Of a stretch of DNA of 64,000 nucleotides, positions 8,764-31,172 are shown in pieces (position 1 is the stretch's first letter; each line of letters opens with the position of its first letter). The stretch covers positions 60,528-124,527 of the forward strand of contig CAYJEJ010000003.1 of NCBI GenBank assembly GCA_964369315.1. The letters run 5' to 3'. Below the pieces are notes generated by a model that was not told where the DNA came from, searched no databases, and saw only the letters and a program-made list of their open reading frames with translations. The position numbers were made by a program, and so were the translations under genes. This DNA comes from an uncultured Alphaproteobacteria bacterium. Lineage in GTDB: Bacteria; Pseudomonadota; Alphaproteobacteria; UBA3830; JAIRWN01.

Positions 8764-8902
8764 TCTCATTTTAAGCTTTTTTTAAAACCTCTTTTTATAT
8801 AAGTTTTATTATACAGTTTATTAAGCCAATCTATTAATCTTTGCTATATTTTATGCTATAGTGTTTTAATAAGACTATATAATTATTGTATTGGAGAGCG
8901 AG

Positions 8903-9838
8903 ATGGAGAGGTTACTTGACCCGAAGAACGACTGGGCGTTCAAGCAGTTGTTTGGTCAAGAGAAGAACAAGAAGATATTGATAAGTTTTCTGAACGCGAT
9001 GTTGGAAGGCGTTGAGTCTTTGGTGGTTGATGTGGAGTTTTTGAAAGTTGAAACGGACACAGAGATACAGGCACTGAGGCAAAGCATAGTTGACGTGTTG
9101 TGCAAAGCAGAAGACGGGCGAAGGTTTATAGTCGAGATGCAGAGCTCGTCGGACTCTAGTTTTATTCAGAGGGCAGTTGAATATGCGAGCAGGGTATATT
9201 TAAACCAGCGGACGCGGGCAGCAAAAGAGAGGCACGACGGAGGCGGGAGAAAGGCGGTTTGTCCAGTGATTTTTCTTGCGGTTGTAGAGAAGAAGTTGTT
9301 CAAGGACATAGAGGGATATTTGACGCACCATCGGATACAGGAGGTTGTGACAGGCAGGTGCGAGATTAGGGAGATGTCGTTTTCGTTTTTGGAGCTGTCG
9401 AAGTTTGATAAGGGTTTTGATGAATTGGAGAGCGATGTAGACAGGTGGGCATATTTTTTCAAGCATGCGGACATGGTCTCGCCGGAGAGGTTGAGGGAGA
9501 TATTTGAGAGTAAGACGATATTCGGAGAGGCGTATAAGGAGCTTGAGCGTTCGGGATATTCGCCTGAGCAGTTACTAGAATATGTGAGGTATGAGTTAAA
9601 GGAAGAAGAGATTCAAACCCGCATAACCGACGCCACCCTCAAAGGCGAGAAGAAAGGCAGAGCCGAGGGCGAGAAGAAAGGCAGAGCTGAAGGTGAGAAG
9701 AAAGGCAGAGCCGAGGGTGAGAAGAAAGCAAAAACAGAAACTGCTCGAAATCTTTTATTAATGGGGCTGGGTGATAGCCAAATATCTCAAGCGACAGGCT
9801 TGTCGATTGATGAAATTAGAAGTTTGGGCAAAACGTAA
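8903..9838 (+). CDS. Rpn/YhgA-like PD-(D/E)XK recombination-promoting nuclease / putative transposase
   Basis: N-terminus LLDPKNDWAFKQLFG...ILISFLNAML...DVLCKAEDGRRFIVEMQ is typical of this family. It is visibly more GC-rich than its neighbours. An alternative TTG start lies at 8891. Confidence 0.75.
   Translation: MERLLDPKNDWAFKQLFGQEKNKKILISFLNAMLEGVESLVVDVEFLKVETDTEIQALRQSIVDVLCKAEDGRRFIVEMQSSSDSSFIQRAVEYASRVYLNQRTRAAKERHDGGGRKAVCPVIFLAVVEKKLFKDIEGYLTHHRIQEVVTGRCEIREMSFSFLELSKFDKGFDELESDVDRWAYFFKHADMVSPERLREIFESKTIFGEAYKELERSGYSPEQLLEYVRYELKEEEIQTRITDATLKGEKKGRAEGEKKGRAEGEKKGRAEGEKKAKTETARNLLLMGLGDSQISQATGLSIDEIRSLGKT
9644..9730 (+). repeat. in-frame 24-nt tandem repeat (about 3.6 copies) encoding GEKKGRAE
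   Basis: Units GGCGAGAAGAAAGGCAGAGCCGAG at 9644, 9668 and 9692, plus a partial unit at 9716. Substitutions are mostly third-position. Confidence 0.9.
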
Positions 9839-9882: not shown

Positions 9883-11037
9883 CTATAAAACAACCCTTTC
9901 TAGTATTTTGACGCATTTTGATATTGTCATGCCGTAGTTGGTGATGGCGACGTTATTTTTTTGACATATATTAATTCTAGACTTAATGCCCCTAGAATTG
10001 AGCATACATCCACCACAGTGCACAACTAGTCTAAATTCGCTTAGGTTATTAACGAAACCTTTGCCTTGAGAAAAATAAAAGTCCAGTTTTTTTCCAGTAT
10101 AGGCGGACAATAATTTGGGAATTTTCACCCTCGCAATATCATCTTCCATGGTTGTGTGTGAGCATGCTTCGGATATCAGGACTTTATCTCCATCAATAAG
10201 CTCATCGATTGTATCGGTGCCGTCTAAAAAGGTTTCATAGCCATACATACTTTTACATAATAATATTGAAAAAGTAGTCAATTTTACGTGCTTGGGAACA
10301 GTTGATGATATATCAGCTATACATTGAGAGTCTGCTATGACCATTTTGATATCACTAAAGTCGACAAATTGTAATTGCTCAGGCTGAACTGAGATGACAA
10401 TCGCATTTATATCTAATAATTCTCTTATAGTTTGCACCTGTGCGAGGATTAGTCGACCCTTTGGTGCCTCGCCATCAATTGGGATTACTAGGATGATTTT
10501 GTCATTTTTGCGTATGACCTTTTCTAAAAATCGCTCTTCTTTTTCTTTGGGTGCATTATCGAATATTAGTTGTTTTAATTTGTCTATATTTTTATTATAC
10601 AGGGCACTTACGAACAGAGCATTATTGTTATCAACCTCCGGCGGCTGATTTGATTCATCGTTTTTATTATATACAATGATATATGGAATACAGAGCGATT
10701 TTATTTGTTCTATTAATTTTTGCTCTATTGTTGAAATCTTATTGTCACCTATGACAACAAGTGCCATATCAGATATCTCTAGTGCAGAAAAAGTCGCTGC
10801 TTTTCGCTTTTCTCCCAATGCCGAGCTATCATCCACCCCAGCGGTATCATAAAAAACAATTGGTCCAAAACCAATAAATTCATATGCTTTTGTTACAACG
10901 TCGGTTGTGGTGCCCGATATTTCGGACACTATAGAGATTTCTTGCTCACAAATAGCGTTTAATAAGCTAGACTTTCCCGCGTTGGTCTTGCCCACTATAG
11001 CGATGCTATATCTCATGTTAATCGGCGTTTTATTCAT
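9883..11037 (-). CDS. hydF: [FeFe]-hydrogenase H-cluster maturation GTPase HydF
   Basis: GTPase P-loop GKTNAGKSS and a C-terminal CSH-x45-HCGGC cluster-binding motif (family pattern CxHx44-53HCxxC). The start overlaps the hydE stop by 8 nt. Confidence 0.85.
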   Translation of the reverse strand: MNKTPINMRYSIAIVGKTNAGKSSLLNAICEQEISIVSEISGTTTDVVTKAYEFIGFGPIVFYDTAGVDDSSALGEKRKAATFSALEISDMALVVIGDNKISTIEQKLIEQIKSLCIPYIIVYNKNDESNQPPEVDNNNALFVSALYNKNIDKLKQLIFDNAPKEKEERFLEKVIRKNDKIILVIPIDGEAPKGRLILAQVQTIRELLDINAIVISVQPEQLQFVDFSDIKMVIADSQCIADISSTVPKHVKLTTFSILLCKSMYGYETFLDGTDTIDELIDGDKVLISEACSHTTMEDDIARVKIPKLLSAYTGKKLDFYFSQGKGFVNNLSEFRLVVHCGGCMLNSRGIKSRINICQKNNVAITNYGMTISKCVKILERVVL

Positions 11038-12043
11038 AATGAACCTGTTTTTTACTGCGTCCTGAGTTGCTTTTATTCACCATTAGCCCGATATCGGTGA
11101 TTTGTTTTTCTAATGATTCTAATCCTTCGGCTAAGCCAGATTTGGCAGAACCTTTTCCAGGATAGATACTATATTTTTCTCTATATATTTTTGGTGTGAA
11201 GGACATCATAACGACATTACACCCCCTTTTGAGACCTTTTTCTATACCAAGTGGGTCAACAACCTTTAAAGCGTTTGTAAAAGGGATGTTCACATAAGGG
11301 TCTAAAATTCTATATATTGCACACGCCCTGTATATTATATCCTTCCCACACGCTGTTTCATCAGCTAGGGGAGTGTTTGAGGTTGGAATGAATGGAGATA
11401 TTGAAAACATGTGTATGCCAAGGTCTTTCATCGTAATCAGGTCTTTTGCAAGTTTTTCGGTTGTATATCTTGGCAGACCAGCTAAAAAACCAGAGCCAAC
11501 TTGATATTTGTGCTTGATTAAACTCTTAAGCCTGCTTAAACGGTTCTCTAGGGTTGAGTTTGGTCTTATTGTTTTATATATCGGACGTTGCAGGGTCTCC
11601 ATTTTTAAGAGATATCGGTCTGCTCCAAGACTTTTCCATTTAGCATATGTATCGTCAGAGTGTTCACCATAAGATAGGGTGATATCTGCCTTAGTGAGCT
11701 CTTTTATAATAGGAAGAGCCTTATTAATCACAGGAACTTGTTGTGGAGATTCCCCTCCTTGAAGAACAATACTTGAAAGCCCACATTTTGAAACCTCTAA
11801 AGCCGAATCAGTAATTTCTTGCTCCGACATACTATATCGATTAATGCCCTGCGAACTTTTTCTCAATCCGCAATATAAACAGTCCATGAAACACTGGTTT
11901 GAGGTTTCTATTATTCCCCGAATAAAAACCTCTTTGCCATAAATTTGCTCTTTTATCCTGTTTGCGGTTTTAAAAAGCCACTCGTCATCTCTTCCTGATA
12001 ATAGCTCTTTGATATCTTTATACGTAAATATCATTTGCTCCAC
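11030..12043 (-). CDS. hydE: [FeFe]-hydrogenase H-cluster radical SAM maturase HydE
   Basis: Radical-SAM CFMDCLYCGLR (CX3CX2C). The blocks GADRYLLKMET...IRPNSTLENRL and YSIYPGKG align with characterised HydE. Confidence 0.85.
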   Translation of the reverse strand: MEQMIFTYKDIKELLSGRDDEWLFKTANRIKEQIYGKEVFIRGIIETSNQCFMDCLYCGLRKSSQGINRYSMSEQEITDSALEVSKCGLSSIVLQGGESPQQVPVINKALPIIKELTKADITLSYGEHSDDTYAKWKSLGADRYLLKMETLQRPIYKTIRPNSTLENRLSRLKSLIKHKYQVGSGFLAGLPRYTTEKLAKDLITMKDLGIHMFSISPFIPTSNTPLADETACGKDIIYRACAIYRILDPYVNIPFTNALKVVDPLGIEKGLKRGCNVVMMSFTPKIYREKYSIYPGKGSAKSGLAEGLESLEKQITDIGLMVNKSNSGRSKKQVHYE

Positions 12044-13415
12044 ACTTTATAGAATCAATTTTTTTCTCGATTTCACTAGGGTTTTTAGTTTGTGCTATTA
12101 ATTTCTTTACAAGTTCATCGCCTGCGACTTGAGTTTTTTCAGAGGCATAATCTCTTAGGTATTCTGCGAATGTAAAAATCGCATTAGGTAAGCAGAAATT
12201 TTTTATAAAGTTATTTTTAGCCAATCCCATAAAGTTATCGCCCGTTCTGTCTTTACGATAGCATCCCGTACAAAACGAGGGGACATAACCATCTTGCACC
12301 AATGCAAAAATCACTTCATCTAGAGACCTGTCATCCCCAACAGTAAACTGTTGTGCCTCTTCCAAATTTGTTTTTGACATTTTATACCCACCTGGATAAA
12401 CCTTAGATGCCGCACTCAATTGCGAAATTCCTAGGCTAATAAGTTCGTTTCTCATAGCCGCATTTTCCCTAGTGCTGATAATAAGCCCAGTATATGGAAC
12501 CGCAATTCTCATAATCGCTATGGTTCTTTTTAACTGTTTATCGGTTAATTGAGCGGGCGGATTATAGGACATTTCTGACCCTAATGCAGGCTCAATCCTT
12601 GGAAAAGAAATCGTATGAGGACCAACCCCCATGTCTTTTTCCAATTGTTCAACATGTTTTAAAACGGCAAGTGTTTCAAACTTATAGTCATATAGCCCAT
12701 ATAAGGCACCAATGCCAACATCATCGATGCCAGCTTCCATGGCACGATGCATTGCGTACAACCTGTATAAGTAATCCGTTTTTTTACCAAAAACATGGAC
12801 TTTTTCATAAGTGGGCTTATGGTATGTTTCCTGAAAGCATTGATATGTTCCAATGTTTCCTGATTTTAATTTTCTGAAGTCGTCAACATCCATTGGGGCT
12901 AGGTTTACGTTGATTCTTCGTATCTCTCCGCTTTTGCCAGTTTTCACGCTATAGGCAGCAGAGATTTGCTCAACTATAAGCTCCATGTCGTATTCAGACT
13001 CTCCCCAGACCATCAAAAGACGCTTATGACCCATTTCTTCTATGATTTTAACTTCTTCTTTTATCTCATTATTTGTAAGAATTCTTCTTTTTAACTCTTT
13101 GTTGTCTTGACGAAATCCGCAATATAAACAAGAGTTTTTGCACACATTTGACACATAAAGTGGAGCAAACAAAACCATGCGGTTTCCATAAACTCTCTCT
13201 TTAATCTCTCTTGCGACATTTTCTATTTCTTTTTCGAGCTCTTCATCTGTGTTTTGCAATAAAATCGCCATTTCCTTTAAAGACAATTTTTTGTGGTTTA
13301 TGTCACGGGCGTTTTCTAATATTTGAAGGACGTCTTTTCCATTGGATTTTTGGGTATCTTCTAGGAGGGAGTTGATTTCTTCTTCGTTTATAAAGTTTTT
13401 CATAATGCTAAACAC
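12018..13415 (-). CDS. hydG: [FeFe]-hydrogenase H-cluster radical SAM maturase HydG
   Basis: Radical-SAM CKNSCLYCGF plus the HydG-specific C-terminal CTGC-x22-C (CX2CX22C), which distinguishes HydG from ThiH. It overlaps hydE by 26 nt. Confidence 0.85.
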   Translation of the reverse strand: MFSIMKNFINEEEINSLLEDTQKSNGKDVLQILENARDINHKKLSLKEMAILLQNTDEELEKEIENVAREIKERVYGNRMVLFAPLYVSNVCKNSCLYCGFRQDNKELKRRILTNNEIKEEVKIIEEMGHKRLLMVWGESEYDMELIVEQISAAYSVKTGKSGEIRRINVNLAPMDVDDFRKLKSGNIGTYQCFQETYHKPTYEKVHVFGKKTDYLYRLYAMHRAMEAGIDDVGIGALYGLYDYKFETLAVLKHVEQLEKDMGVGPHTISFPRIEPALGSEMSYNPPAQLTDKQLKRTIAIMRIAVPYTGLIISTRENAAMRNELISLGISQLSAASKVYPGGYKMSKTNLEEAQQFTVGDDRSLDEVIFALVQDGYVPSFCTGCYRKDRTGDNFMGLAKNNFIKNFCLPNAIFTFAEYLRDYASEKTQVAGDELVKKLIAQTKNPSEIEKKIDSIKCGANDIYV

Positions 13416-14921: not shown

Positions 14922-17900
14922 TTATATATAAAATTCTTCCAACTTTGATAAGATTTCGGCATTAATATCATATTTTCCTAAATCTAGTGTTACATCATGT
15001 CGATTTATTGAACTTTTTAACTCTATTGGTATGCCAATATCAGATTGGGGGACTTGGCTAAGTATTTGTTGTATTTTACTTAAGTCGTTTTCGTCATTAA
15101 ATTTAAGCTGTAATTTATTTAGATTTTTCTTTATAGCATCATCAAGAGGTTCAACAGATTGTACGTTTAAACGTAAAACATCTTGGTAAATTTTTCCTAT
15201 AATAGATAGTTTCAGCATGCTACCAGACTTGAGGAGCTCGCGATTGGCGAACAAAACATCTGAAAACATCACAGTCTCAAAAGTGGCACTTGTGTCAGAC
15301 AATGTAATGAAAGCAAATTTGTTGCCTGATTTTGCGATTTTTATTTTTGAATCTAACAAAACCCCAGCTATATTACAGGTTGTGCTTGGATTTTTTTCAA
15401 AATAAGACTCTAATTCAGAAAACCCTTTGATTTGGAGCTTGTTATAATATTTTTTATAACTCTCTAAAGGGTGAGACGAGATATAAAAACCCATCACCTT
15501 TAGCTCATTATTCAACTTTTCTAGGTTTGACCAAGGTGAATATTCAGTCAATATGCCATCATCTTTCAGAATTGCGTTGTCGTTTTTCATGTCAAATAAA
15601 GAAGCTTGATTAGAATTTTTGGTTTCTTGTTCTTTTGCTCCAATATTTAAGACTTTTTCGATGTTTTCAAATAACATCCTCCTATTGGGGTTTATAGAGT
15701 CAAAACAACCAGCACAAATCAACCCCTCAAGATGTTTTTTGTTTGCAACCTTGGAGTCAAATACACTTGCAATATCTGTGATGCCAGCATAATCTCTCTT
15801 CAAACTTTTTCTCTTAGAAACCAAGCTTTCCATCGCAACGACGCCTTGTCCTTTTATAGCAGATAAGCCATATCGAATAGCCAGCTTATTGTTTTTGGTT
15901 TCAACTGAAAAATCTGGCTCTGATTTGTTAATATCTGGGGGCAAAAGTTCGATGCCGAGTTTTTCCAACTCCTGTTTATATACTGATAATTTTTCAGTAT
16001 TATTCAAGTCGAGGTTCATCGTGGCAGTCATGAACTCTACGGGGTAGTTAGCTTTTAGATATGCGGTTTGATACGATATGAGTGCATATGGAGTGGAGTG
16101 ACATTTGTTAAAGCCGTAACTGGCAAACTTACTTATTTGGTCAAACAGCTTGTCTGCCTCTGCCGAGGGCATATTGTTATGTTGACCAGCACCATCAACA
16201 AATCTTTTTCTCTGTACGTCCATTTCTTCTTTTATTTTTTTACCCATAGCACGCCTTAATAGGTCTGCTTGACCAAGCGTATAACCGCTGAGGACTTGGG
16301 CTATTTGCATAACCTGTTCTTGATAAACCATCACGCCATAGGTTTCTTTCAAAATAGGCTCTATTGAAGGGTGGGCATATACGACGGCTTCTTTACCGTG
16401 TTTGCAGTTAATATATCTTGGGATGTCATCCATTGGACCTGGTCGATAAAGAGCAACCAGTGCAACCAAGTCTTCAAAACGGTCTGGCCTCAGCTGTTTC
16501 GCAACATCTTTCATGCCCCCGCTTTCAACTTGAAAAACACCTGTAGTATCAAGGTTGTTAAACAGTTCAAATGTTTTTTTATCATCTAATGGGATTTCTT
16601 GTAATACGATATTTATTCCCCGTTTTTCTAGGAGATCGATGGTTTGCTGGATAACAGTGAGCGTTTTGAGGCCCAAAAAATCGAACTTAACTAAACCCGT
16701 TTGTTCTATAAACTTCATATTAAACTGGGTGATGGGGATTTCTGACTTTGGGTCGCTATATAGTGCAACGATTTCGTCAAGTGGACGTTGACCAATAACA
16801 ACGCCTGCTGCGTGTGTGGATGCGTGTCTGTAAAGCCCTTCTAATTGCATGGAAATTTTTATTAATTGCGCAACATTTTGGTCATCCTCGATGTGTTTTT
16901 TTAATAACGGCTCCATTTCCATCGCTTGAGCTATCGTGATGTTTAATGATGGGTTATTTGGGATTAATTTGCATATTTTATCAACATACCCATATGGCAT
17001 TTGTAGAACTCGCCCAACATCGCGTAAGACCGCCCGAGCCTGCAACTTTCCGAATGTGATTATTTGTGCAACCTTGTCTTTTCCATAACGCTGGCGGACA
17101 TATTCTATGACCTCATCTCGACGCTTTTGACAAAAATCTATATCAAAGTCAGGCATCGATACGCGTTCTGGGTTCAAAAATCTTTCAAAAAGCAAAGAAA
17201 ATTTTAAGGGGTCGACGTCTGTAATCGTCAGCGACCAAGCCACCACTGAACCAGCACCAGACCCACGACCAGGTCCTACGGGGATTTTATTGGACTTCGC
17301 CCATTGAACAAAATCAGAAATAATAAGAAAATATCCGCAAAAACCCATCTTGGATATTACTTGAATTTCATAATCTAGGCGGTCAAAGTATTGTTTGGCA
17401 AAATTCTCAAACTCTGAATCAGGGATTTGATATAATTTTTTTATGGTATCTAGGCGAGCTTTTAAGCCTATTTTTGATTTTTCATACAACTCGTCCTCTT
17501 CTGTTTTTCCGTCAGAAACAGGAAAAGAGGGGAGCATCGGTTTTTTACTCTCGACCATGAAAGAACATCTTTGAGCGATTATTGATGTGTTATTTATCGC
17601 CTCTGGTAAGTCAGCGAATAGCTGTTTCATCTCTTGTTGTGATTTAAAATAATACTCCGGTGATGAAGACAGGCGGGTTTCGTCGTTTATTGTTTTTCCT
17701 TGACCTATGCATAGGAGGACGTTGTGTGCCTCATGCATTTTTGGGGTTTCAAAAAAAACGCTATTGGTTGCCACGATTGGCAAGTTTAAATCAAAAGCGA
17801 TGTTTAGAAGGTCATCTTCTATTTGGTCTTCGGCGGGGTCATGATGCCTTGATATTTCGATATAAAAGCGATTTAAAAATGCACTAGATAAATCTTTTGC

Positions 17901-18524: not shown

Positions 18525-18601
<77 letters not shown>

Positions 18602-19886: not shown

Positions 19887-21344
19887 TTAGTTTTTCGTGT
19901 GTTCGCTTATTTTTTCTATGTAATAGTCGTCTGGTTTATCTACTCTATAAAAATAGCTATCATCAGATTCAATGGCATTAGTGTCGAAGACTTTTTCTAA
20001 TATTTCTTTCGAGCGTTCATCAGGTAATCTCCTTACGTATAATTTATATGGTTTATCAATATCGCAATAGTCAAAAAAAACAAAAGCATGGAAGCGGTCT
20101 AGGGCTTCTTCTTTAAGGCATGTCTTGACATTATTTTTTTCAAAATATTTTCCCAGAACCTCTTCGGATAGATATTTCTTTGAAGAAACCATATTATTGT
20201 TCTTATCAAAGGTAATTTCGGACCCAAAACTTTTATATGCCATCACAGGTTTGTGTTCATGTTGCTCTGGGTTCTGCTTTTCATCACCTATAACCAGTAC
20301 AATAATATCGTGTTCTTTTATGATACCGTTCTTTTGCCATTTTTCTACATCTTTACTTTTGTCCAGAATACTATTAGCCCATCTAGATTTTTTTATATCA
20401 TCATCACCGAACTGACCCTCTATCTTGCCATAAGTAGTGTCTTGTGTAGAATATTCACACCCTTGTTTAACGGGACCTTCATCACCTGTCTGTGTTGTGT
20501 TTTGACCATTAATATCAGTATGTTCAGAGTGTCTTTTTTGCGTGTCCTGATAGCACGTGCATTCGATGAATATATTATAATCTTTGCATTCAATTTTAAA
20601 ATCTGGACCACCTTTATCTTTGCCTAGACTACCATTACTAACTTTATAACCGGATTTTTTTAAATTATAGGCTACATTTAATTCAACGAGCCGACTAAAA
20701 GTTTTTCCTGCTTCATTCTTTTTATTATTAAACTCCTTTTTAAAGTTGGCATCTAGTAGCCCTTTTGCCACACTATACTTATACTCAAAAAATGGTTGGC
20801 ATCGTTCGTTACACTTTTTAAAATAGTAACAGTTTCGTTTGTTGATGGTTTTTGAGAAGCTAGCTTTTATTTCATTATAATAATCACTACCATAATTTTC
20901 ATCAAATAGCCTTTCTTCTTTAAAGTATTTTACGAAGGAGTATTTTGTTAATTTTGGGTTTTTGGGGTTTTTTCTAACAAATTCTAGTTCGTATCCGCAT
21001 TTTTCATAAAATTTTGGTGCTAAGAACTCTGAAGTCCAAAGATTTATGTTCCAATATCCTTTTTCCTTGAAATTTTTCTCTAATTCAGCAAGAAGTGTTT
21101 TCCCAAAACCTTGTTTTCGATATTTTTCCTCAACCCATAACATATCGACATAAATCTCGTCATATATGGTCAACGCTTTTATCATACCGATTAACTCCTG
21201 ATTGCTCTCATCAGTCATAAGCATCCAAAAGGGATGATAATTAGAATCTATATTATGAGCACCATCATGTTTTTTCCAACTTTCCTTTACTTTTTCCTCA
21301 AGTTGTTTCGAAATTTTGTCTACTGTTTGTATATTAAATTTCAT
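19887..21344 (-). CDS. GNAT N-acetyltransferase fused to an uncharacterised ~330-aa C-terminal region
   Basis: The N-terminal ~150 aa carry the GNAT motif A RKQGFGKTLL and KFYEKCGYE. The C-terminal part has no recognised family but contains E...GGPDFKIE...NIFIECT, a PD-(D/E)XK-like arrangement. Confidence 0.7.
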   Translation of the reverse strand: MKFNIQTVDKISKQLEEKVKESWKKHDGAHNIDSNYHPFWMLMTDESNQELIGMIKALTIYDEIYVDMLWVEEKYRKQGFGKTLLAELEKNFKEKGYWNINLWTSEFLAPKFYEKCGYELEFVRKNPKNPKLTKYSFVKYFKEERLFDENYGSDYYNEIKASFSKTINKRNCYYFKKCNERCQPFFEYKYSVAKGLLDANFKKEFNNKKNEAGKTFSRLVELNVAYNLKKSGYKVSNGSLGKDKGGPDFKIECKDYNIFIECTCYQDTQKRHSEHTDINGQNTTQTGDEGPVKQGCEYSTQDTTYGKIEGQFGDDDIKKSRWANSILDKSKDVEKWQKNGIIKEHDIIVLVIGDEKQNPEQHEHKPVMAYKSFGSEITFDKNNNMVSSKKYLSEEVLGKYFEKNNVKTCLKEEALDRFHAFVFFDYCDIDKPYKLYVRRLPDERSKEILEKVFDTNAIESDDSYFYRVDKPDDYYIEKISEHTKN

Positions 21345-21512: not shown

Positions 21513-24500
21513 TTAAAAATAATCTTTGTTGGTTTTTTTAATAATATTTTCTAATTTTTTGGAAATTGTATCCGATGGATTTTTACCCAAATTAAATCGA
21601 TTAATTCGAATGAATTGACATCCGTATCCCTCCAAAATTTTTTCTCGTTCTATGTCTGATTTTTTGTAATAAAATTCGTAGTTAAAATGATTTACTTCCG
21701 ATAAATTTGTAAAATGTTCTTTAAAACCATCATACTCAATAATAATATTATTCGATTGATTTTTATTTCTATATTGTAGAAAAAAATCACAACGATATCT
21801 TGGATGGTTATATCTATGGTCAAGTTGTTTTAAGTAGTCACCAATGGGAAACTGAGCTTGGATAGAAAAGAATTCTCGGTTTTTTTGATAAAATTGAGCG
21901 TCTTGAATCCATAACAATACTTTTTGCTCCATGGGAGAGGATGGGTCGACATCTTCTTTTGAGGGCAGTTCTTTAGCCTGTAAAAGTTGATTTTCATAAA
22001 AGTTTAAAGCTGTTCTTATAGAGCCAGAGAATTCATTAATTGGTTTGCTGAGTACGAAGTGCATGCATTCTTTAGCCCTACTAAAACCAACGTTAAGACG
22101 TTGTAACCTAATCTTTTTTACATCATCATTTGAATCTTCAATATTTGCAGAAAATATGTAGTTTGTTTTATCAGAGACAGGGGAGGCAGTCATCGAATAA
22201 AAGATAATGTCCCTCTCTTCACCTTGACAGCTGTCAAATGTCATAATTTTTAATTTTAATTTGAGGTAAATATCTTCTGCAAATTTTGATTTTCTAACTA
22301 CATTAGAAATGAACTTTTGTTGATTAACAAATGGAGTTATGACACCAACTGATGTCGATGATTTTTCTGAAACAAGGCGTTCAAGTTCTTGCACAATAAA
22401 TTCAGCTTCAAAAGGGTTAGTATTATTATCTTCTGGGGTTTCTAATTTTTCATCATGTTGTAAAACAGTAAATTTTAAAACATCGTCAATGGGTTTTCCT
22501 CGGATTTTTATCGCCTGAAGTTGCCCATCATAAAAATATTTGCTTGAAAATGAAATAATTTCTCGATATCCTCTAAAGTGTTTACGTAGCATGATACTGT
22601 AATTGGCAATAAAAGAGAAAAAATCTAAGACTGAGGTTTTAATATCAAGCTGTTTCATCCTTTCTAATTGCAGTGTATCTTTGGAAATATTGTCTTTAAA
22701 TGATATTATCAATTTATCCAAATAACTATTGCTAATAATTTTACTCGCAGCGGATGTTTTAACGTTGCTAAATTGTCTCGTATCACCAAGGACTATAATT
22801 TTTTTTGCCCTTAAAATTGCTGGAAACGCTTGTGCTAAACTTACCTGTGACGCCTCATCAATAATGACAAGGTCAAACAGCCCTTCTTTTAGTGGGATAT
22901 ATTCTGAATAATTACGAATGCCCGCTATTATACAAGGAAAGGTTTCTTTTATGTTATCAAACTCGACACGTGGAAATTTTTGTCTTTTAGAAATGATATT
23001 TTTAAGTGTTGTTGATGTGCTTCTTTTATTTTCATAAAAATCCAATACTTTGTCATCAATTGAAGAAATCATCAATAAGGTGTGGAGTTTCGATATTTGT
23101 TGACTATAGTTTAGGTAGTTCATATCTGGAATGGAAGAAAATATTTCTTTATATTCCGTTTTCTTTTTACAATATTCATCAACAAGGCAAGTTTGTTTTA
23201 GAAGGGACTTTATAGATTCCCTATCTTTTGTTGCTACGAAAGAAAGGTCTATGCCTAAATTTTTTAAGATATTAATTTCTGGAACACCTAATTTAGGAAT
23301 TGGGAATGTGTCTGATATTTTTGACAAAAAATCAATATAAGAAGAATCGTTATTTGTTGTAAAAAAATCATAAAATTCCATAAATTCTTTTTTAGGAAAA
23401 TTTTGTTTGTTTGCTAAATCGATAATTTCATCAATCGCAACAAGAGTTTCTATAATTAATGGTGCCTCTTGCGAAAGGTTAAGATGTTTTTCTAATTTAA
23501 AAATATCATTCAATCTTTGCTCAAGGGCAACTACTTGAGACTTATATAAAAATTTAAAAAACTTTTTTGATAAAAGGTTATATTGTTTTACAATGCTTCT
23601 AATCTCTAAGAGAGGTTGTTCTTCCATTTTAAGCATTATATCTAAGTGATGGTGTAGTCGATATTTATCGTACCATGAACAAATTGAAACAAATAAGTCG
23701 ATAGTTTCTTTTAAGTTTTTATCGTTCCAAGAAGAGAGTTGGTTATTCAGGTATTGGATAAAGACGTTTAGCACTTTTTCATCAAAACTGTCGTGTAAGT
23801 TTATTAAGAATTCAAAGAAAGATTTAATATTTGGGAGTATTGGAGAGATTAAATTAATGCCATCGATATTCTGTTCGCCAATTTTTTGTTCGATTGTTTT
23901 TTCTAATTTGATAAAATTGTTTAATTCCTTAATGTTAATTTTGTCATAATAATTTATGGTTTGTTCAATTTTATTAATTAACTCTTTTTTCTCTTTGCAA
24001 ATTTTAGAGTTTATATCTTCTAATTCTTCGCTACAAATATAGTGATTTCGAATCTTACTAATAGATGTATGACTAAATATTTTACTAAAATTAGGTTTAT
24101 CTAGACGAAGTATTGGATTTGAGAAATTTTCTGCCCCTCTTACTTTATTGCATGTGTCATTGATTTTGTCTTGAACGACATCTAGAGCCTCTGTTTTGTC
24201 GGAAAGGATTAAAACAGATTTGCCTTTCATAATCATATCAAAAACAATTGCGGTAATTGTATGACTTTTGCCAGTACCTGGGGGACCTTGTACGGCAATA
24301 CATTTGCAATCTTTTTCATTCAAGGCAGTTATAATTTTTCTTTGTTCTGCATTTAAGGGAACAGGTGAATCATAAACCAAGCGTTCTGATATATTTTTTT
24401 GTTCCCAATCGGTTTCTATTTCTTTACGACGCGAGATTGGGTCTTCTAAAATAAAAGATTTTAAAAAGTCGACAAAAGCAAGAGATAACGGGTTGTTTTC

Positions 24501-25694
24501 TGGATTCAAAACATTTATTAACTCTTCATAGTCATTAAGTATAGCTTCATCTGATGTATCGAACAGGCAAAAATGAATGTTATTTGTAATTTTTAGAGTT
24601 GGGGACTGCCTTTTAGTTGATTTATGGTCAGATAGGTTTATATCCTCTAAAAATGAAAAATGCCTAGTAATATCCGAAATAATAGGCTGTAAAACTGTTA
24701 AGATTGTTTTTTCGTCATCATTTAAGTAAACAATATGGTCTTTAACTGAGCGGATTTTAGAAAATTTTTGATTATCATTATCCTTGTTATATTCTTGTAC
24801 TATATATTCAATTGCCTTTTTATTTATAAAAACACGACTTTTTTCAATAACAATAGAAAACAAATCATTTTGTTTTTCGATTTTTATTGGTAAATAAAAA
24901 ACAGGATAAATTCTTTTTTCAAAATGGATGTCACAAAAATAAAGATAAAAATCTTTTTTTTCAGTTAATTGTTTATTTTCAAATATTTCGAATATTTCAT
25001 AGAACAAATCATACAACATAAAATCTTCAAAAAAATCATGTAACTTTTCTTTGAAAATTGAAATGTTTAAAAGCTCAAGTAAAGCAAGTTTAAAATTATC
25101 TATTTCTTCATTTATAAAAAATGATGCTAGGTGTTCATTCAAGTCTTCTCTAATATTGCCCAATAATAGATTTAATAAATCATTTTCAATTGTAAATGTC
25201 GTATCTTGTTGTAATGCTTTATCTAAATTACTAGAAAGTGGTCGAATGATTTTTTGTAATAATTCTTCTCTAATGTTTTCTATGACCTGTTCGAAGAAAG
25301 AATCATAGTCATCTATATGGTTCGTGCGAATACTTACTATATTGGCTAAGTATGATATTACGAGGTTTTCTAGAGCTGTCTCATCTATTGAATTTATGAT
25401 TTCTGTTATAAGACTTTTTAAATTAGGTTTCAGATTTAATTTGTGCTGACCTTTTTTAATCTCAAATTCAACGAAAGGTTCATTATTGTTTATCAAATTT
25501 TTTAAAACAAATTCTTGAAATTTCTCATATTTGGCTAAATTAATGCCTGACAAATAACCATTGTTATCTCTCAGACGGATGAAACGTTTAGGTATTGATT
25601 GACGATGGAATCCAGTTTCAAGAAAATCAGAGTAATATCTCATCAATTCTTTAAAAAATACTTTTTCTCCCTCTCTTAAACCTGCGTGAACCAT
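21513..25694 (-). CDS. SF1 (Upf1/AAA_11-AAA_12-like) helicase fused to a C-terminal Vsr/DUF559-like endonuclease domain
   Basis: Walker A GPPGTGKSHT, a gap of more than 450 aa, then VIIDEASQ, VLGDTRQ, LRKHFRG, TFDSCQGEERD and RLNVGFSRAKE. The C-terminus YRCDFF...IIIEYDGFKEH...REKILEGYGCQFIRI matches the Vsr/DUF559 pattern. Confidence 0.8.
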   Translation of the reverse strand: MVHAGLREGEKVFFKELMRYYSDFLETGFHRQSIPKRFIRLRDNNGYLSGINLAKYEKFQEFVLKNLINNNEPFVEFEIKKGQHKLNLKPNLKSLITEIINSIDETALENLVISYLANIVSIRTNHIDDYDSFFEQVIENIREELLQKIIRPLSSNLDKALQQDTTFTIENDLLNLLLGNIREDLNEHLASFFINEEIDNFKLALLELLNISIFKEKLHDFFEDFMLYDLFYEIFEIFENKQLTEKKDFYLYFCDIHFEKRIYPVFYLPIKIEKQNDLFSIVIEKSRVFINKKAIEYIVQEYNKDNDNQKFSKIRSVKDHIVYLNDDEKTILTVLQPIISDITRHFSFLEDINLSDHKSTKRQSPTLKITNNIHFCLFDTSDEAILNDYEELINVLNPENNPLSLAFVDFLKSFILEDPISRRKEIETDWEQKNISERLVYDSPVPLNAEQRKIITALNEKDCKCIAVQGPPGTGKSHTITAIVFDMIMKGKSVLILSDKTEALDVVQDKINDTCNKVRGAENFSNPILRLDKPNFSKIFSHTSISKIRNHYICSEELEDINSKICKEKKELINKIEQTINYYDKINIKELNNFIKLEKTIEQKIGEQNIDGINLISPILPNIKSFFEFLINLHDSFDEKVLNVFIQYLNNQLSSWNDKNLKETIDLFVSICSWYDKYRLHHHLDIMLKMEEQPLLEIRSIVKQYNLLSKKFFKFLYKSQVVALEQRLNDIFKLEKHLNLSQEAPLIIETLVAIDEIIDLANKQNFPKKEFMEFYDFFTTNNDSSYIDFLSKISDTFPIPKLGVPEINILKNLGIDLSFVATKDRESIKSLLKQTCLVDEYCKKKTEYKEIFSSIPDMNYLNYSQQISKLHTLLMISSIDDKVLDFYENKRSTSTTLKNIISKRQKFPRVEFDNIKETFPCIIAGIRNYSEYIPLKEGLFDLVIIDEASQVSLAQAFPAILRAKKIIVLGDTRQFSNVKTSAASKIISNSYLDKLIISFKDNISKDTLQLERMKQLDIKTSVLDFFSFIANYSIMLRKHFRGYREIISFSSKYFYDGQLQAIKIRGKPIDDVLKFTVLQHDEKLETPEDNNTNPFEAEFIVQELERLVSEKSSTSVGVITPFVNQQKFISNVVRKSKFAEDIYLKLKLKIMTFDSCQGEERDIIFYSMTASPVSDKTNYIFSANIEDSNDDVKKIRLQRLNVGFSRAKECMHFVLSKPINEFSGSIRTALNFYENQLLQAKELPSKEDVDPSSPMEQKVLLWIQDAQFYQKNREFFSIQAQFPIGDYLKQLDHRYNHPRYRCDFFLQYRNKNQSNNIIIEYDGFKEHFTNLSEVNHFNYEFYYKKSDIEREKILEGYGCQFIRINRFNLGKNPSDTISKKLENIIKKTNKDYF

Positions 25695-25790: not shown

Positions 25791-25864
25791 TGGAGGCCGA
25801 GATCGGAATCGAACCAACGTACAAGGATTTGCAGTCCTCTGCATAACCACTCTGCCACCCGGCC
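25791..25864 (-). tRNA. tRNA-Cys (anticodon GCA)
   Basis: The reverse complement reads GGCCGGGTGGCAGAG...GACTGCAAATCC...GGTTCGATTCCGATCTCGGCCTCCA. Anticodon loop CTGCAAA, encoded CCA. Confidence 0.9.
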
Positions 25865-25976: not shown

Positions 25977-27398
25977 ATGAATATTAGTCGGCTAAGATTT
26001 TTTGGCTTTTTATCGTGTTTGCTTTATTCTTTTAATGTCAGTGCTATGACATTAACGCAAGCCATTAAAAATGCCAGTGCTATGACATTAATACAAGCTA
26101 TTGAAAATGCTTTCTTATATAACGCAAAGTGGAAGGCTGCTGTTTTGGAGGATAGTGCCGTAAAACAAGATTCTTTCACTGCAAAAATGGCTTTTGCTCC
26201 ATCTGCGAACGTAAACCTTTCAACAGGGCCTACATATACAAAATCCAAATCATCCTCTGAAGGTGTGAAAAACCCAGACCAGCAAAATAAAGAGTATTCG
26301 AAACAGGCTGGTTTGTCTGTGAACCAAAAAATATTAGATTTTTCATCATTTGCACAAATCAAAAACGCTAATGAAAGTGTTTTGGTTAGCAACAGTAACC
26401 TTCAAAAAATTAAGCAAGACGTCATTATAGAAACGTTAAGTGCCTATATGGGGCTTTGGGCGGCTAGGGAAAATGTAAAAATATCTGAAAAAAATGAACA
26501 AAATATTGAACAAGACTTACTAGCTTCCAGAAAACGTTTGGAGGTTGGTATCGGAATTCTTCAGGACGTGGCAGCGAACGAGGCGGCTTACGCAGAGGCA
26601 GTATATTATCGAATTGATGCACAGGCAAAGCTTGCAACTGCAGTTGCAGAGTTTGAAAAAACCGTTGGCGTAATGCCAAATGGGGATTTGGTCATGCCAG
26701 GGCTACCAAAAAATATTCCAGATGAATTGGGGAAATTTTTGGCAAGTGCTTTGAAGGATAACCCCTCTGTTAAGCAAAGCAGGTACCAAGAGTCGGTGGC
26801 CTTATCTTCTGTGGACGTTCAAAAGGGTGCGTTGATGCCGAATGTTACTTTATCAGCCAATGCTTCAAGAAATTTAGGAGAGAGAAATACAAAAACTCCT
26901 AGCTCAATTTATCCAACAGTTAATAATCAGAGTTCGAACCTAAGTGCTAAAATAGAGCTGACTGTTCCGCTGCTAGCGTTTTCAAATTATAGCAGAATTA
27001 AACACGCCAATATAAAGGCGGAATCTGCTCACATGAACTATCAACTGACCCGTCAGGAAATAGAAAAATCTTGTTATAGTTTGTGGGCACAGTTTGAGAC
27101 CTCGAAGGCTCAAATAAAACAAGCCGAACTTGCGGTTAAGAGTGCTGAGATTGCTGCTAAGGGTATGAGGCAGTGTTTGACCTTGGGGACTAAGTCTACT
27201 ACTGATGTTTTACAACAAGAACAAAAATTGCTTCAAGCACGTAGGAATAGTGTTGAAGCGAGGCGGGTTTTTATTATAACAGCGTATAACCTGATAGCTT
27301 TAATGGGACAACTTGATTTGTTAAATGTGGTGGAGAAAGTTAATATTCCTGAAACTGAAGTGGGCAACGTTATTGATGAGGAAATAAGTGTTGGTTAA
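25977..27398 (+). CDS. tolC: TolC-family outer membrane efflux protein
   Basis: Signal peptide MNISRLRFFGFLSCLLYSFNVSA, followed by the two-repeat TolC helix/strand pattern. ATG 25977 was preferred over the ORF-track start at 25932. Confidence 0.8.
   Translation: MNISRLRFFGFLSCLLYSFNVSAMTLTQAIKNASAMTLIQAIENAFLYNAKWKAAVLEDSAVKQDSFTAKMAFAPSANVNLSTGPTYTKSKSSSEGVKNPDQQNKEYSKQAGLSVNQKILDFSSFAQIKNANESVLVSNSNLQKIKQDVIIETLSAYMGLWAARENVKISEKNEQNIEQDLLASRKRLEVGIGILQDVAANEAAYAEAVYYRIDAQAKLATAVAEFEKTVGVMPNGDLVMPGLPKNIPDELGKFLASALKDNPSVKQSRYQESVALSSVDVQKGALMPNVTLSANASRNLGERNTKTPSSIYPTVNNQSSNLSAKIELTVPLLAFSNYSRIKHANIKAESAHMNYQLTRQEIEKSCYSLWAQFETSKAQIKQAELAVKSAEIAAKGMRQCLTLGTKSTTDVLQQEQKLLQARRNSVEARRVFIITAYNLIALMGQLDLLNVVEKVNIPETEVGNVIDEEISVG
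26029..26100 (+). repeat. 36-nt tandem duplication (2 copies, 4 mismatches) at the signal-peptide/mature junction of tolC
   Basis: The duplication encodes SAMTLTQAIKNA and then SAMTLIQAIENA. Confidence 0.9.
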
Positions 27399-30587: not shown

Positions 30588-30629
30588 TTATTATGTGTTA
30601 CAGTCATGAAGTTATTTTTATAACTATGG

Positions 30630-30907
30630 CGATAAACGTTATAAGTAATAGATGTTTTGGACCCGAGGGCGGAACTCGGCACCTCCACCAAGATTAGGTT
30701 TTTTGCGGGGGTGAATTAGGCTCGACAGATATTGAAAGTTATAATTTTCGCTCGGCATGGTACCGTCGTTATCGGGCTAAAACTAATAAGTGCAAACGAT
30801 AATTTTGCATTGACAGATGAGTTGAAAGCTGCTGCTTAGTTTAAGCAAGGCTTGAAGACTTTTTTGTCGCGGTTTAGGGGCTCCGGGCAACAGAAAGCCC
30901 CTGTTTT
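30630..30907 (+). ncRNA. ssrA: tmRNA (ssrA), circularly permuted two-piece alphaproteobacterial type
   Basis: The acceptor piece ends with T-arm CCGAG-GGCGGAA-CTCGG plus CACCTCC-A-CCA at 30690. After a 16-nt spacer, the coding piece starts GGGGGTG at 30707 and pairs with a G3:U. The tag ORF GCA AAC GAT AAT TTT GCA...TAG (30792-30839) encodes ANDNFALTDELKAAA. A terminal hairpin AGGGGC/GCCCCT plus T-run lies near 30876-30907. The outer boundaries are approximate. Confidence 0.8.
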
Positions 30908-31172
30908 CCAAATTTATGTTTTGTAGTATCTCTAGCAAACATACAATAATCAATTATCAATAATAATTTAAATGGGCACCGCCTATACGATATATCTTTC
31001 TTCAGTCACAAAGTTTTGATGTGAATGGGATAATTCAGGGCTTAACTTAGGACGTTGAAAGACGCAAAAAACACATAAGACTGTGCTGTTATAAGCAACC
31101 AAATTTCAAACAACGTTATATACAAAGCTATATAAATCTGATGAAGCCTTTTCAAGGAAAGCAAGGCTACCC

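What the first reader, a model, noticed from the sequence alone, without database searches (positions are those of the whole stretch)
21513..25694. 1393-aa SF1 helicase with a giant Walker A/B insertion and a C-terminal Vsr/DUF559-like endonuclease
Seen in the sequence: helicase motifs occur in the order GPPGTGKSHT, a gap of more than 450 aa, VIIDEASQ, VLGDTRQ, LRKHFRG, TFDSCQGEERD, RLNVGFSRAKE. This is the Upf1/AAA_11-AAA_12 pattern. The gap between Walker A and motif II is long, Lys/Glu/Ile-rich and probably helical. The last ~150 aa read PMEQKVLLW...YRCDFFLQYR...IIIEYDGFKEHF...REKILEGYGCQFIRINRF. This matches the Vsr/DUF559 restriction-endonuclease-like signature (E..., D-F, E-x-D-G, R...L...G..R). 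The first ~450 aa have no motif I recognise. Inference: this is a single-polypeptide translocase plus nuclease, the same logic as Mokosh type II but with a Vsr-like rather than a PLD nuclease. In a small AT-rich, probably host-associated genome, a 4.2 kb intact gene of this kind implies selection.
Basis: partly seen in the sequence, partly recalled or inferred. Interest (0 to 1): 0.7.

Follow-up and report, generated by a model that had tools for sequence, protein, structure and literature searches.

The report
Hhe-like helicase–nuclease, probable mobile defence gene
The 1393-residue gene is an intact member of an uncharacterised, horizontally mobile family that fuses a Upf1-type helicase to a Vsr-type DNA nuclease; it has the same build as the known anti-phage protein Hhe, so it is most likely a one-protein defence against foreign DNA rather than a new kind of system.

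Summary
ORF 21513-25694 (minus strand, 1393 aa) contains every quoted motif. Pfam finds AAA_11 and AAA_12, and PDB sequence matches are Upf1 and IGHMBP2.

- **C-terminus:** the Pfam MTES_1575 match is below threshold. A profile-profile comparison with bona fide MTES_1575 (Vsr-fold) domains gives 96.7% probability, E 4e-10, with the catalytic E, D and ExD aligned.
- **N-terminus:** the "motif-less" region is a conserved domain with no match in the PDB. Residues ~227-395 are a divergent DUF4011 module (hhalign 82-86%, E 5e-6; reversed controls P 0.2-0.7).
- **Insertion:** the large gap inside AAA_11 also occurs in the DUF4011 helicases checked.

The closest known kind is therefore Hhe (DUF4011 + SF1 helicase + Vsr nuclease), not Mokosh II. 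It is not an Hhe, ProA, MkoC or PDC-S37 member; all curated models match only the helicase core.

Relatives lie in mobile or variable contexts. These include a 14-kb tRNA-Met island with 67-nt att repeats, a T4SS region, transposases, R-M genes and a Priestia plasmid. No partner gene is conserved.

In the window it has the lowest GC and GC3 of 51 ORFs and sits beside tRNA-Cys. It keeps 176 of 180 family-invariant residues. A defence function is inferred, not shown.

The parts
21513..25694 (-). Whole gene: 1393-aa helicase-nuclease
   Evidence: ORF list and translation. About 2000 full-length homologues at 36-60% identity. It retains 176 of 180 positions invariant in 30 relatives.
25017..25694 (-). 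Residues 1-226: family-specific N-terminal region. It has a conserved helix (FLETDFH.R..PKR consensus), a small beta element and a poorly conserved helical bundle.
   Evidence: AF2 model of residues 1-446, pLDDT 81.9. No PDB or BFVD fold match. The profile finds it only at the N-terminus of 1300-1700-aa proteins or fragments.
24510..25016 (-). Residues 227-395: divergent DUF4011-like module (YPVFYLPIKIEK ... LFDTSDEAILNDYEE)
   Evidence: hhalign against 27 DUF4011-type N-termini gives Prob 82-86%, E 5e-6 to 1e-5 over 159 columns. Reversed controls give P 0.19-0.72. The Pfam DUF4011 HMM itself does not hit.
23919..24356 (-). Residues 447-592: first part of RecA1 (AAA_11), including Walker A GPPGTGKS (470-477, nt 24264-24287)
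   Evidence: Pfam AAA_11 covers 447-592 against profile positions 2-147. G470-T481 is invariant in the family.
23130..23918 (-). Residues 593-855: variable insertion inside AAA_11, with conserved length but weakly conserved sequence
   Evidence: Mean majority fraction 0.33. The Walker A to motif II stretch is 408-443 aa in all 31 members. DUF4011 relatives have a similar or larger gap, for example L038 AAA_19/AAA_30 843-901 and AAA_11 1495-1536.
22047..23129 (-). Residues 856-1216: remainder of RecA1 (motif II DEASQ 946-950, motif III GDTRQ) and RecA2 (motifs IV-VI), covered by AAA_12
   Evidence: Pfam AAA_12 covers 1031-1214, E 3e-22. PDB sequence matches are Upf1, IGHMBP2, Nam7 and DNA2. The motif residues are invariant.
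21555..21944 (-). Residues 1251-1380: MTES_1575-type (Vsr-fold) PD-(D/E)xK nuclease domain. Candidate catalytic residues are E1256, D1303, E1320, D1322 and H1327. R1350, E1355 and R1363 are also conserved.
   Evidence: AF2 pLDDT 90.9 with an alpha-beta-beta-beta-alpha-beta order. hhalign against bona fide MTES_1575 domains gives Prob 96.7%, E 4e-10. Pfam MTES_1575 is sub-threshold in 28 of 31 members. The Foldseek top hits include many restriction enzymes, but all are weak.
25791..25864 (-). tRNA-Cys, 96 nt upstream of the start codon on the same strand. It is a possible former integration site.
   Evidence: ARAGORN. No att-like repeat of its 3' end was found in the window.
18525..18601 (+). 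tRNA-Met at the other edge of the low-GC block 18.6-25.8 kb
   Evidence: ARAGORN; GC profile. It may be unrelated to the gene.

Best explanation
The gene encodes a single-protein helicase-nuclease with the same architecture as the anti-phage protein Hhe. The parts are an N-terminal sensor or regulatory region containing a DUF4011-like module, a Upf1-like SF1B ATPase/translocase with a variable ~260-aa insert in RecA1, and a C-terminal MTES_1575 (Vsr-fold) PD-(D/E)xK endonuclease.

**Shown here:**
- the domain composition;
- intact catalytic motifs in both enzymes;
- membership of a discrete, fixed-architecture family;
- a patchy distribution of that family, which rides on integrative islands and a plasmid and lies next to transposases, T4SS genes and R-M genes.

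**Inferred:**
- The protein acts alone as an innate defence against phages or other invading DNA. ATP-driven 5'->3' translocation on DNA would deliver or license the C-terminal nuclease. This follows established knowledge of Upf1-like SF1B helicases.
- The N-terminal domain and the variable insert would gate activity or recognise the target.
- The window copy is a stranded cargo gene acquired horizontally next to tRNA-Cys, without its integrase. It lacks the C-terminal Zn-ribbon(s) that most relatives carry.
For: **Helicase:** Pfam AAA_11 and AAA_12 are above threshold. PDB matches are Upf1, IGHMBP2 and DNA2. All motif residues are invariant.

**Nuclease:**
- hhalign Prob 96.7%, E 4e-10 against true MTES_1575 domains, with E / D / ExD / R..LE..G in register.
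- A confident AF2 model with the PD-(D/E)xK strand order.
- MTES_1575 is described as a novel Vsr-fold REase fused to SF-I helicases (PMC3710099).

**DUF4011-like module:**

**Same architecture in distant relatives:** DUF4011 + split AAA_11 + AAA_12 + MTES_1575.

**Precedent:** Hhe is active against lambda, T3, T7 and PhiV-1, and activity is lost with a nuclease-site mutation (bioRxiv 10.1101/2022.06.16.496414).

**Mobility and defence context of family members:**
- A 14.1-kb island with integrase and primase, bounded by a 67-nt direct repeat overlapping tRNA-Met.
- T4SS and SIR2_2 genes.
- IS elements.
- N6_Mtase + NspV, PNKP-like genes and IS elements.
- KAP NTPase, DUF1016 and recombinase genes.
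- A serine recombinase and a HEPN protein.
- ORF6N and NYN genes.
- A mobilizable Priestia plasmid.
- One member is fused to WYL.
- No partner gene is conserved.

**Window:**
- Lowest GC (0.289, z -2.2) and lowest GC3 (0.233) of 51 ORFs.
- Adjacent to tRNA-Cys.
- Absent next to TolC in the two nearest available relatives.
- 176 of 180 family-invariant residues retained.
Against: - No experiment exists for any member of this family.
- No curated defence model recognises it beyond the helicase core.
- In the window and in L084 the flanking genes are housekeeping, with no integrase and no att repeat.
- Low GC is suggestive only, because two neighbouring genes are also below average.
- The nearest host relatives are too distant (53-54% TolC identity), and not syntenic upstream of TolC, to prove an insertion.
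- Only about 11 contexts were inspected, without a statistical background.
- Many homologues come from reduced genomes (CPR, DPANN), which could instead point to a core repair role. The hit list is biased by word pre-selection.
- Foldseek matches of the nuclease model are all insignificant (E >= 0.027), and no Vsr structure is among the top 50.
Confidence: 0.6

Rival explanations
1. It is a housekeeping DNA repair or recombination helicase-nuclease, a Dna2/AddAB-like end processor. It would be retained because small genomes lack other end-processing enzymes.
For: - DNA2 is among the PDB sequence matches.
- In the window and in L084 the gene is flanked by housekeeping genes.
- In L086 it lies next to AddAB-like genes.
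- On the Priestia plasmid it lies next to a 'damage repair protein' and a YolD-like gene.
- Many homologues are from reduced-genome lineages.
- No modification or immunity partner is seen that would provide self/non-self discrimination.
Against: - The family is small for a core function: 239 clusters at E<=1e-30 among 1.84 billion representatives.
- Neighbourhoods are not conserved, and most contain integrases, transposases, T4SS or R-M genes.
- One copy is demonstrably cargo of an att-bounded island.
- The window copy has the most atypical composition of 51 ORFs.
Confidence: 0.15
2. It serves the mobile element rather than the host. It would be a cargo or maintenance function of integrative islands and plasmids, for example exclusion of competing elements, element replication or processing, or an addiction-like function. 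The window copy would then be a leftover.
For: - It is carried inside an integrase + primase island.
- It lies next to T4SS genes.
- It is carried on a mobilizable plasmid.
- It is co-located with a DUF4236 gene in the two alphaproteobacterial loci L001 and L002.
Against: - Several copies have no element genes nearby.
- The window copy remains fully intact without an element.
- Defence cargo on mobile elements is the usual situation, so this reading overlaps largely with the best explanation.
Confidence: 0.15
3. It is a non-functional remnant of a past acquisition that is decaying in an endosymbiont-like genome.
For: - There is no integrase and no att site.
- The C-terminal Zn-ribbon module present in most relatives is missing.
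- GC is very low.
Against: - The 4.2-kb frame is uninterrupted.
- 176 of 180 invariant and 271 of 287 >=90%-conserved positions are retained, with conservative changes.
- The closest relatives (P0002-P0005, 1398-1404 aa) also end right after the nuclease, so the lack of a fused Zn-ribbon is a subclade trait.
Confidence: 0.05

Closest known systems
Hhe (hhe; DUF4011 helicase + Vsr endonuclease single-gene anti-phage system). I attribute its first description to Gao et al. 2020 Science from my own knowledge. Activity data are cited in bioRxiv 10.1101/2022.06.16.496414.
   Same: - Single polypeptide.
- DUF4011-type module upstream of the helicase.
- Upf1-like SF1 core with AAA_11 split by a large insert.
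- C-terminal MTES_1575/Vsr-fold nuclease.
- No partner gene.
- Found in mobile or defence contexts.
   Different: - NCBIfam Hhe_antiphage scores 106 bits against a cut-off of 2000, and only on the helicase core.
- PADLOC Hhe reaches only E 1.8e-21.
- The Pfam DUF4011 HMM does not hit.
- It is about 400-500 aa shorter than the Hhe profiles.
- It has an extra family-specific ~225-aa N-terminal region.
- The nuclease domain carries family-specific insertions.
- Most relatives add Zn-ribbon(s) of the Top1 type.
Mokosh type II (MkoC) and type I MkoA
   Same: The helicase core is Upf1-like/COG1112 (PADLOC MkoA/MkoC E ~1e-42 over residues ~937-1212). For type II, helicase and nuclease are fused in one protein.
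   Different: Mokosh uses a PLD-family nuclease, and no PLD domain is present here. Only the helicase half aligns. The N-terminal domains differ.
PADLOC candidate PDC-S37 and NCBIfam 'anti-phage protein ProA' (NF058533)
   Same: These are the best-scoring defence models (PDC-S37 1.7e-43; ProA 4.5e-41). Both are large SF1 helicase proteins.
   Different: The matches are confined to the helicase core. ProA scores 140 bits against a cut-off of 1500. None of the 31 family members scores better than 2.8e-48 on PDC-S37. I found no open-access paper describing either.
Upf1 / IGHMBP2 / DNA2 (eukaryotic SF1B helicases)
   Same: RecA1/RecA2 motifs I-VI, with PDB sequence matches at E 1e-9 to 4e-3. DNA2 is likewise a helicase-nuclease.
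   Different: The accessory domains are unrelated. The nuclease here is C-terminal and of the Vsr/MTES_1575 type.
[quoted passage not shown]
   Same: Motif order is E ... D-F ... E-x-D-G..H ... R...LE..G..f.R. Profile-profile probability is 96.7%. The family is defined as a Vsr-fold REase fused to SF-I helicases (PMC3710099).
   Different: - It is below the Pfam gathering score (15.2 against 38.2 bits).
- It has two insertions relative to canonical domains.
- No Vsr or DUF559 structure is among the top 50 Foldseek hits.

Membership tests
Upf1-like SF1B helicases (Pfam AAA_11 + AAA_12) | Both Pfam domains above the gathering score | tested here: met
   AAA_11 66.1 bits and AAA_12 79.5 bits, against a cut-off of 27.
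Upf1-like SF1B helicases (Pfam AAA_11 + AAA_12) | Helicase motifs I, II, III, IV, V and VI present and conserved | tested here: met
   GPPGTGKS, DEASQ, GDTRQ, HFRG, QGEERD and RLNVGFSRAK are in the sequence and invariant in 31 homologues. PDB matches are Upf1 and IGHMBP2.
Upf1-like SF1B helicases (Pfam AAA_11 + AAA_12) | 5'->3' ATP-dependent translocation or unwinding | not testable with these tools
   This needs biochemistry.
Hhe anti-phage protein | Curated full-length model (NCBIfam NF042953, cut-off 2000 bits; PADLOC Hhe) | tested here: not met
   106.4 bits, over residues 915-1214 only. PADLOC Hhe gives 73 bits. The best among 31 relatives is 4.6e-26.
Hhe anti-phage protein | DUF4011 domain N-terminal to the helicase | tested here: inconclusive
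   The Pfam DUF4011 HMM gives no hit for the window protein, and DUF4011 is not among the families listed for the 31 relatives. Profile-profile comparison with DUF4011-type N-termini gives Prob 82-86%, E 5e-6, and reversed controls are negative.
Hhe anti-phage protein | C-terminal Vsr/MTES_1575 nuclease | tested here: met
   hhalign Prob 96.7%, E 4e-10, with catalytic residues aligned. The Pfam hit is sub-threshold in 28 of 31 members.
Hhe anti-phage protein | Protects against phage, dependent on the nuclease | not testable with these tools
   This is known for E. coli Hhe. It is untested for this family.
Mokosh type II (MkoC) | PLD-family nuclease domain fused to the helicase | tested here: not met
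   No PLD family appears in the Pfam results listed for the protein or among the families listed for its 31 relatives. The MkoC model matches only residues 938-1211.
MTES_1575 / Vsr-fold restriction-endonuclease-like domain | Pfam PF18741 at or above the gathering score (38.2 bits) | tested here: not met
   15.2 bits, E 0.023, over residues 1343-1380. The best among relatives is 7.9e-5.
MTES_1575 / Vsr-fold restriction-endonuclease-like domain | Homology to bona fide domains, with conserved acidic catalytic residues | tested here: met
   (the template sequences were verified as MTES_1575 at 84-135 bits). E1256, D1303, E1320 and D1322 are invariant.
MTES_1575 / Vsr-fold restriction-endonuclease-like domain | PD-(D/E)xK alpha/beta fold | tested here: inconclusive
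ProA (NCBIfam NF058533) and PDC-S37 (PADLOC) | Full-length match to the model | tested here: not met
   ProA scores 140 against a cut-off of 1500 bits. PDC-S37 scores 147 bits on the helicase core only.
Horizontally acquired genomic island | Atypical composition and tRNA adjacency | tested here: met
   Lowest GC and GC3 of 51 ORFs. tRNA-Cys lies 96 nt upstream.
Horizontally acquired genomic island | Integrase and flanking att repeats in the window | tested here: not met
   No integrase is seen among the neighbours. No repeat of the tRNA-Cys 3' end was found. Both features are present in the relative L002.

The most novel reading that the evidence does not exclude
This fixed-architecture family has a unique N-terminal domain with no match among solved (PDB) or predicted viral (BFVD) structures, a DUF4011-like module, an SF1B helicase, a Vsr-fold nuclease and optional Zn-ribbons. 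It could be a distinct, so far unnamed single-protein defence system that current defence catalogues (PADLOC v2, NCBIfam) miss. It may be a significant part of the sparse immune repertoire of reduced-genome lineages (CPR bacteria, DPANN archaea, Holosporales-like endosymbionts). Its target-sensing mechanism, encoded in the novel N-terminal domain and variable insert, could differ from that of Hhe.
Probability: 0.4. Interest if true: 0.6.

Novelty: new variant of a known kind. Interest (0 to 1): 0.42.

Why it matters
If the family is a working defence system, it adds a compact one-gene helicase-nuclease module to the known repertoire. The curated defence model sets searched here (PADLOC v2, NCBIfam) do not recognise it. 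It would also link the poorly understood DUF4011/Hhe group to a broader superfamily whose common parts are now defined: a DUF4011-like module, a split AAA_11, and an MTES_1575 nuclease.

The family occurs in organisms whose immunity is little known, such as endosymbiont-like alphaproteobacteria, CPR and DPANN. It has a confidently predicted N-terminal domain without a solved analogue. That makes it a reasonable target for structural and mechanistic work on how such enzymes tell foreign from self DNA without a modification partner. It is not a new principle.

Tried and rejected
- **PDB profile search with the C-terminal alignment:** only chance hits, E >= 0.13.
- **Foldseek, C-terminal model against PDB:** the top hits include many restriction endonucleases, but none is significant.
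- **Foldseek, N-terminal model against PDB and BFVD:** nothing credible.
- **Exact look-up of the window protein's contig:** not on record. Cluster look-up gave no names or accessions, so the organism is inferred only from TolC relatives and the permuted tmRNA.
- **Genome-contig scan:** it did not recover the window's own genome. Only three true family loci were found, and the rest were distant DUF4011/MTES_1575 helicases. These proved useful as templates.
- **att repeat of tRNA-Cys:** none found.
- **Conserved partner genes:** none, apart from DUF4236 in L001 and L002. The neighbouring GNAT and metallophosphoesterase genes in the window are not shared with any relative's locus.
- **Synteny test through TolC relatives:** uninformative, because the relatives are distant and differ upstream of TolC.
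- **Promoter and terminator scan:** no enrichment over shuffles.
- **Literature:** no paper was found for ProA, PDC-S37 or this family.
- **Mokosh type II as a family assignment:** rejected, because there is no PLD domain.
- **Phage origin:** rejected. tblastn against phage records gave only weak helicase-core hits, and PHROGs matched only helicase-type families.

Full report
**1. Observation**

The window contains an uninterrupted ORF at 21513-25694 on the minus strand, 1393 aa with an ATG start. The distance from Walker A (GPPGTGKS, 470-477) to motif II (DEASQ, 946-950) is 463 aa.

Pfam places AAA_11 (E 5e-18, two stretches, the first covering 447-592) and AAA_12 (1031-1214, E 3e-22) above threshold. 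The best solved-structure sequence matches are Upf1, IGHMBP2, Nam7 and DNA2.

One refinement concerns the "giant insertion". The poorly conserved part is about residues 593-855, roughly 260 aa. The stretches flanking it are conserved helicase sequence.

**2. The family**

A search of 5.8 billion proteins returned about 2000 hits. The best 120 are nearly all full-length matches (98-100% coverage) at 36-60% identity and 1380-1710 aa long. Where sources give names, these come from Alphaproteobacteria, many CPR/Patescibacteria groups, Elusimicrobia, Thermodesulfobacteriota, Chloroflexota and a DPANN archaeon.

The genome and plasmid scans add a Methylotenera MAG and a full-length copy (34% identity over 1215 aa) on a mobilizable Priestia megaterium plasmid. 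The candidate list is pre-selected by shared words, so the taxon mix is biased.

Most members carry an extra C-terminal Zn_ribbon_Top1. The window protein and its closest relatives (P0002-P0005) end right after the nuclease, and no Zn-ribbon remnant lies downstream. In L001 and L085 the ribbon is a separate small ORF.

A profile of the N-terminal 446 aa finds 629 representatives (E<=1e-3) among 1.84 billion, of which 239 have E<=1e-30. The match is always at the N-terminus of 1300-1700-aa proteins or of fragments. This is a discrete family with a fixed architecture.

**3. C-terminal domain**

Pfam MTES_1575 matches the window protein only at E 0.023. It recurs below threshold in 28 of 31 aligned relatives, with a best E of 7.9e-5. 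DUF559 and TnsA-like models appear in a few.

The decisive result is a profile-profile comparison. I aligned C-terminal regions of distant helicases from the genome scan. Those I scanned carry bona fide MTES_1575 domains (42-135 bits). hhalign gives 96.7% probability, E 4e-10, over 99 columns. The residues that align are:
- the conserved Glu (SPME);
- Asp (YRCDF);
- ExD (IEYDG);
- the R...LE..G..F.R helix-strand.

MTES_1575 was defined as a novel Vsr-fold REase fused to SF-I helicases (PMC3710099). The domain is a divergent one, with two family-specific insertions.

**4. N-terminal domain and insert**

The first 446 aa are well conserved, with consensus stretches FLETDFHKRR.PKR, FYLYFCDI.F....YPLFYIP...EK, INKKAIEYIVQEYN and LFDKSDEALVNDYEE. 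They fold with pLDDT 81.9 into a mixed alpha/beta domain. That model has no credible match in the PDB or in BFVD.

Pfam DUF4011 does not hit the window protein. Even so, hhalign of this domain against 27 N-termini of DUF4011-type helicases gives 82-86% probability, E 5e-6 to 1e-5, over 159 columns (residues ~227-395). Four reversed-sequence controls give P 0.19-0.72. The smaller sub-alignments gave the same register, with YPLFYiP aligned to PLLfFPV and NDYEE aligned to pDY.

The DUF4011 relatives I scanned also show a very large gap inside AAA_11. The insertion is therefore not peculiar to this protein.

**5. Comparison with known systems**

The architecture matches Hhe: a DUF4011-like module, a split SF1B helicase and a Vsr-fold nuclease. 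Hhe is a single-gene anti-phage system that I attribute, from my own knowledge, to Gao et al. 2020. It is reported active against lambda, T3, T7 and PhiV-1, and a nuclease-site mutation abolishes activity (bioRxiv 10.1101/2022.06.16.496414).

Membership fails:
- NCBIfam Hhe scores 106 bits against a cut-off of 2000.
- ProA scores 140 bits against a cut-off of 1500.
- PADLOC PDC-S37, MkoA, MkoC and Hhe match only the helicase core.
- The same holds for all 31 relatives tested.
- Mokosh type II is excluded as a family because there is no PLD domain.

The protein works like Hhe but belongs to a separate, unnamed family.

**6. Genomic context**

Contexts of family members:
- **L002** (46% identical, Alphaproteobacteria MAG): the gene is cargo of a 14.1-kb element. 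The element carries a tyrosine integrase, an AEP/D5 primase and HTH_17 genes. It is bounded by a 67-nt direct repeat (94% identical) that overlaps tRNA-Met.
- **L001:** next to HTH, SIR2_2 and T4SS genes.
- **L083:** IS4, IS66 and IS110 elements.
- **L085:** N6_Mtase + NspV, a PNKP-like gene and IS elements.
- **L086:** a recombinase remnant, KAP NTPase, DUF1016 and AddAB-like genes.
- **L087:** a serine recombinase and a HEPN protein.
- **L088:** NYN and ORF6N genes.
- **L084:** housekeeping flanks only.

No neighbour is conserved across loci, apart from a DUF4236 gene in L001 and L002. One member is fused to a WYL domain.

In the window:
- The neighbours are housekeeping genes: dnaE, a YaeI-like phosphoesterase, a GNAT protein, TolC, DUF2497 and a Mur ligase.
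- The gene starts 96 nt downstream of tRNA-Cys.
- It has the lowest GC (0.289) and lowest GC3 (0.233) of 51 ORFs.
- No integrase or att repeat remains.
- The host is an alphaproteobacterium, shown by a permuted tmRNA. Its nearest TolC relatives are 53-54% identical, and one is labelled Holosporales. Neither has the helicase next to TolC, but synteny upstream of TolC is not conserved anyway.
- The protein keeps 176 of 180 positions that are invariant in 30 relatives, so it is not decaying.

**7. Mechanism**

Shown: two intact catalytic modules and mobile, partner-less carriage.

Inferred: the protein is a stand-alone anti-phage or anti-plasmid enzyme. SF1B 5'->3' translocation on DNA would be coupled to cleavage by the Vsr-fold nuclease. 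The DUF4011-containing N-terminal domain and the variable insert would act as sensor or regulator. I give this 0.6.

Rivals:
- a housekeeping repair helicase-nuclease (0.15);
- a function serving the mobile element (0.15);
- a dead remnant (0.05).

**8. Verdict**

However, the design already has a validated precedent in Hhe. This is a new variant of a known kind: an uncharacterised family missed by the curated defence model sets searched here (PADLOC v2, NCBIfam), with an N-terminal domain that has no solved analogue. Interest is moderate (0.42).

Noticed in passing
window 8891-9838 (+): The ORF is a PDDEXK_2 (Rpn/YhgA-like) nuclease-transposase (Pfam E 2e-43). Its GC3 is 0.57, 4.4 sd above the other 50 ORFs. 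It looks like a recent foreign gene in an otherwise AT-rich region.
   Followed up: partly
window 9883-13415 (-): HydF, the [FeFe]-hydrogenase maturation GTPase, is at 9883-11037. It is followed by two ORFs (11030-12043 and 12018-13415) that may be HydE and HydG. This is unexpected in a Holosporales-like alphaproteobacterium and hints at an anaerobic lifestyle or host.
   Followed up: partly
window 19887-21344 (-): This 485-aa protein has a GNAT acetyltransferase domain only in residues ~1-125. The remaining ~360 aa have no Pfam match. It lies directly downstream of the helicase-nuclease gene, and its GC is also below average. No relative's locus contains a homologue.
   Followed up: partly
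window 30594-30930 (+): A permuted (two-piece) tmRNA with tag ANDNFALTDELKAAA. To my knowledge this form is typical of Alphaproteobacteria.
   Followed up: no
window 26034-26105 (+): A tandem 36-nt duplication (86% identical) lies near the 5' end of the TolC ORF (D3). The database version of this TolC (P0125) is 450 aa against the 488-aa mechanical ORF, so the true start is probably downstream of 25932.
   Followed up: no
L002 2690-16884: A complete 14.1-kb integrative island in an Alphaproteobacteria MAG. Its 67-nt att repeats are at 2690-2756 and 16818-16884, and the second overlaps tRNA-Met. It carries an integrase, an AEP/D5 primase and HTH_17 genes, and its cargo is the helicase-nuclease plus a DUF4236 gene.
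   Followed up: yes
L001 14526-15593 and L002 14600-15706: A DUF4236 protein (49% identical between the two loci) lies next to the helicase-nuclease in both alphaproteobacterial relatives, in opposite relative orientations. It is absent from the window and from the other loci. It could be a lineage-specific accessory gene.
   Followed up: partly
L001 14232-14525; L085 14365-14619: In these relatives the C-terminal Zn-ribbon module (a CxxC...CxxC ribbon plus a Top1-type ribbon) is a separate small ORF just downstream, rather than a fused domain. The module therefore seems to be detachable.
   Followed up: partly
P0034 (1712 aa) and P0070 (1582 aa): Family members with extra domains. P0034 carries WYL (PF13280, also seen in PADLOC). 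P0070 carries TPR repeats. To my knowledge WYL domains are often regulators of defence systems.
   Followed up: no
L091 (Priestia megaterium plasmid NZ_CP065336) 17154-18276: A cluster of nine tRNA genes on the plasmid lies about 6.5 kb from the family member.
   Followed up: no
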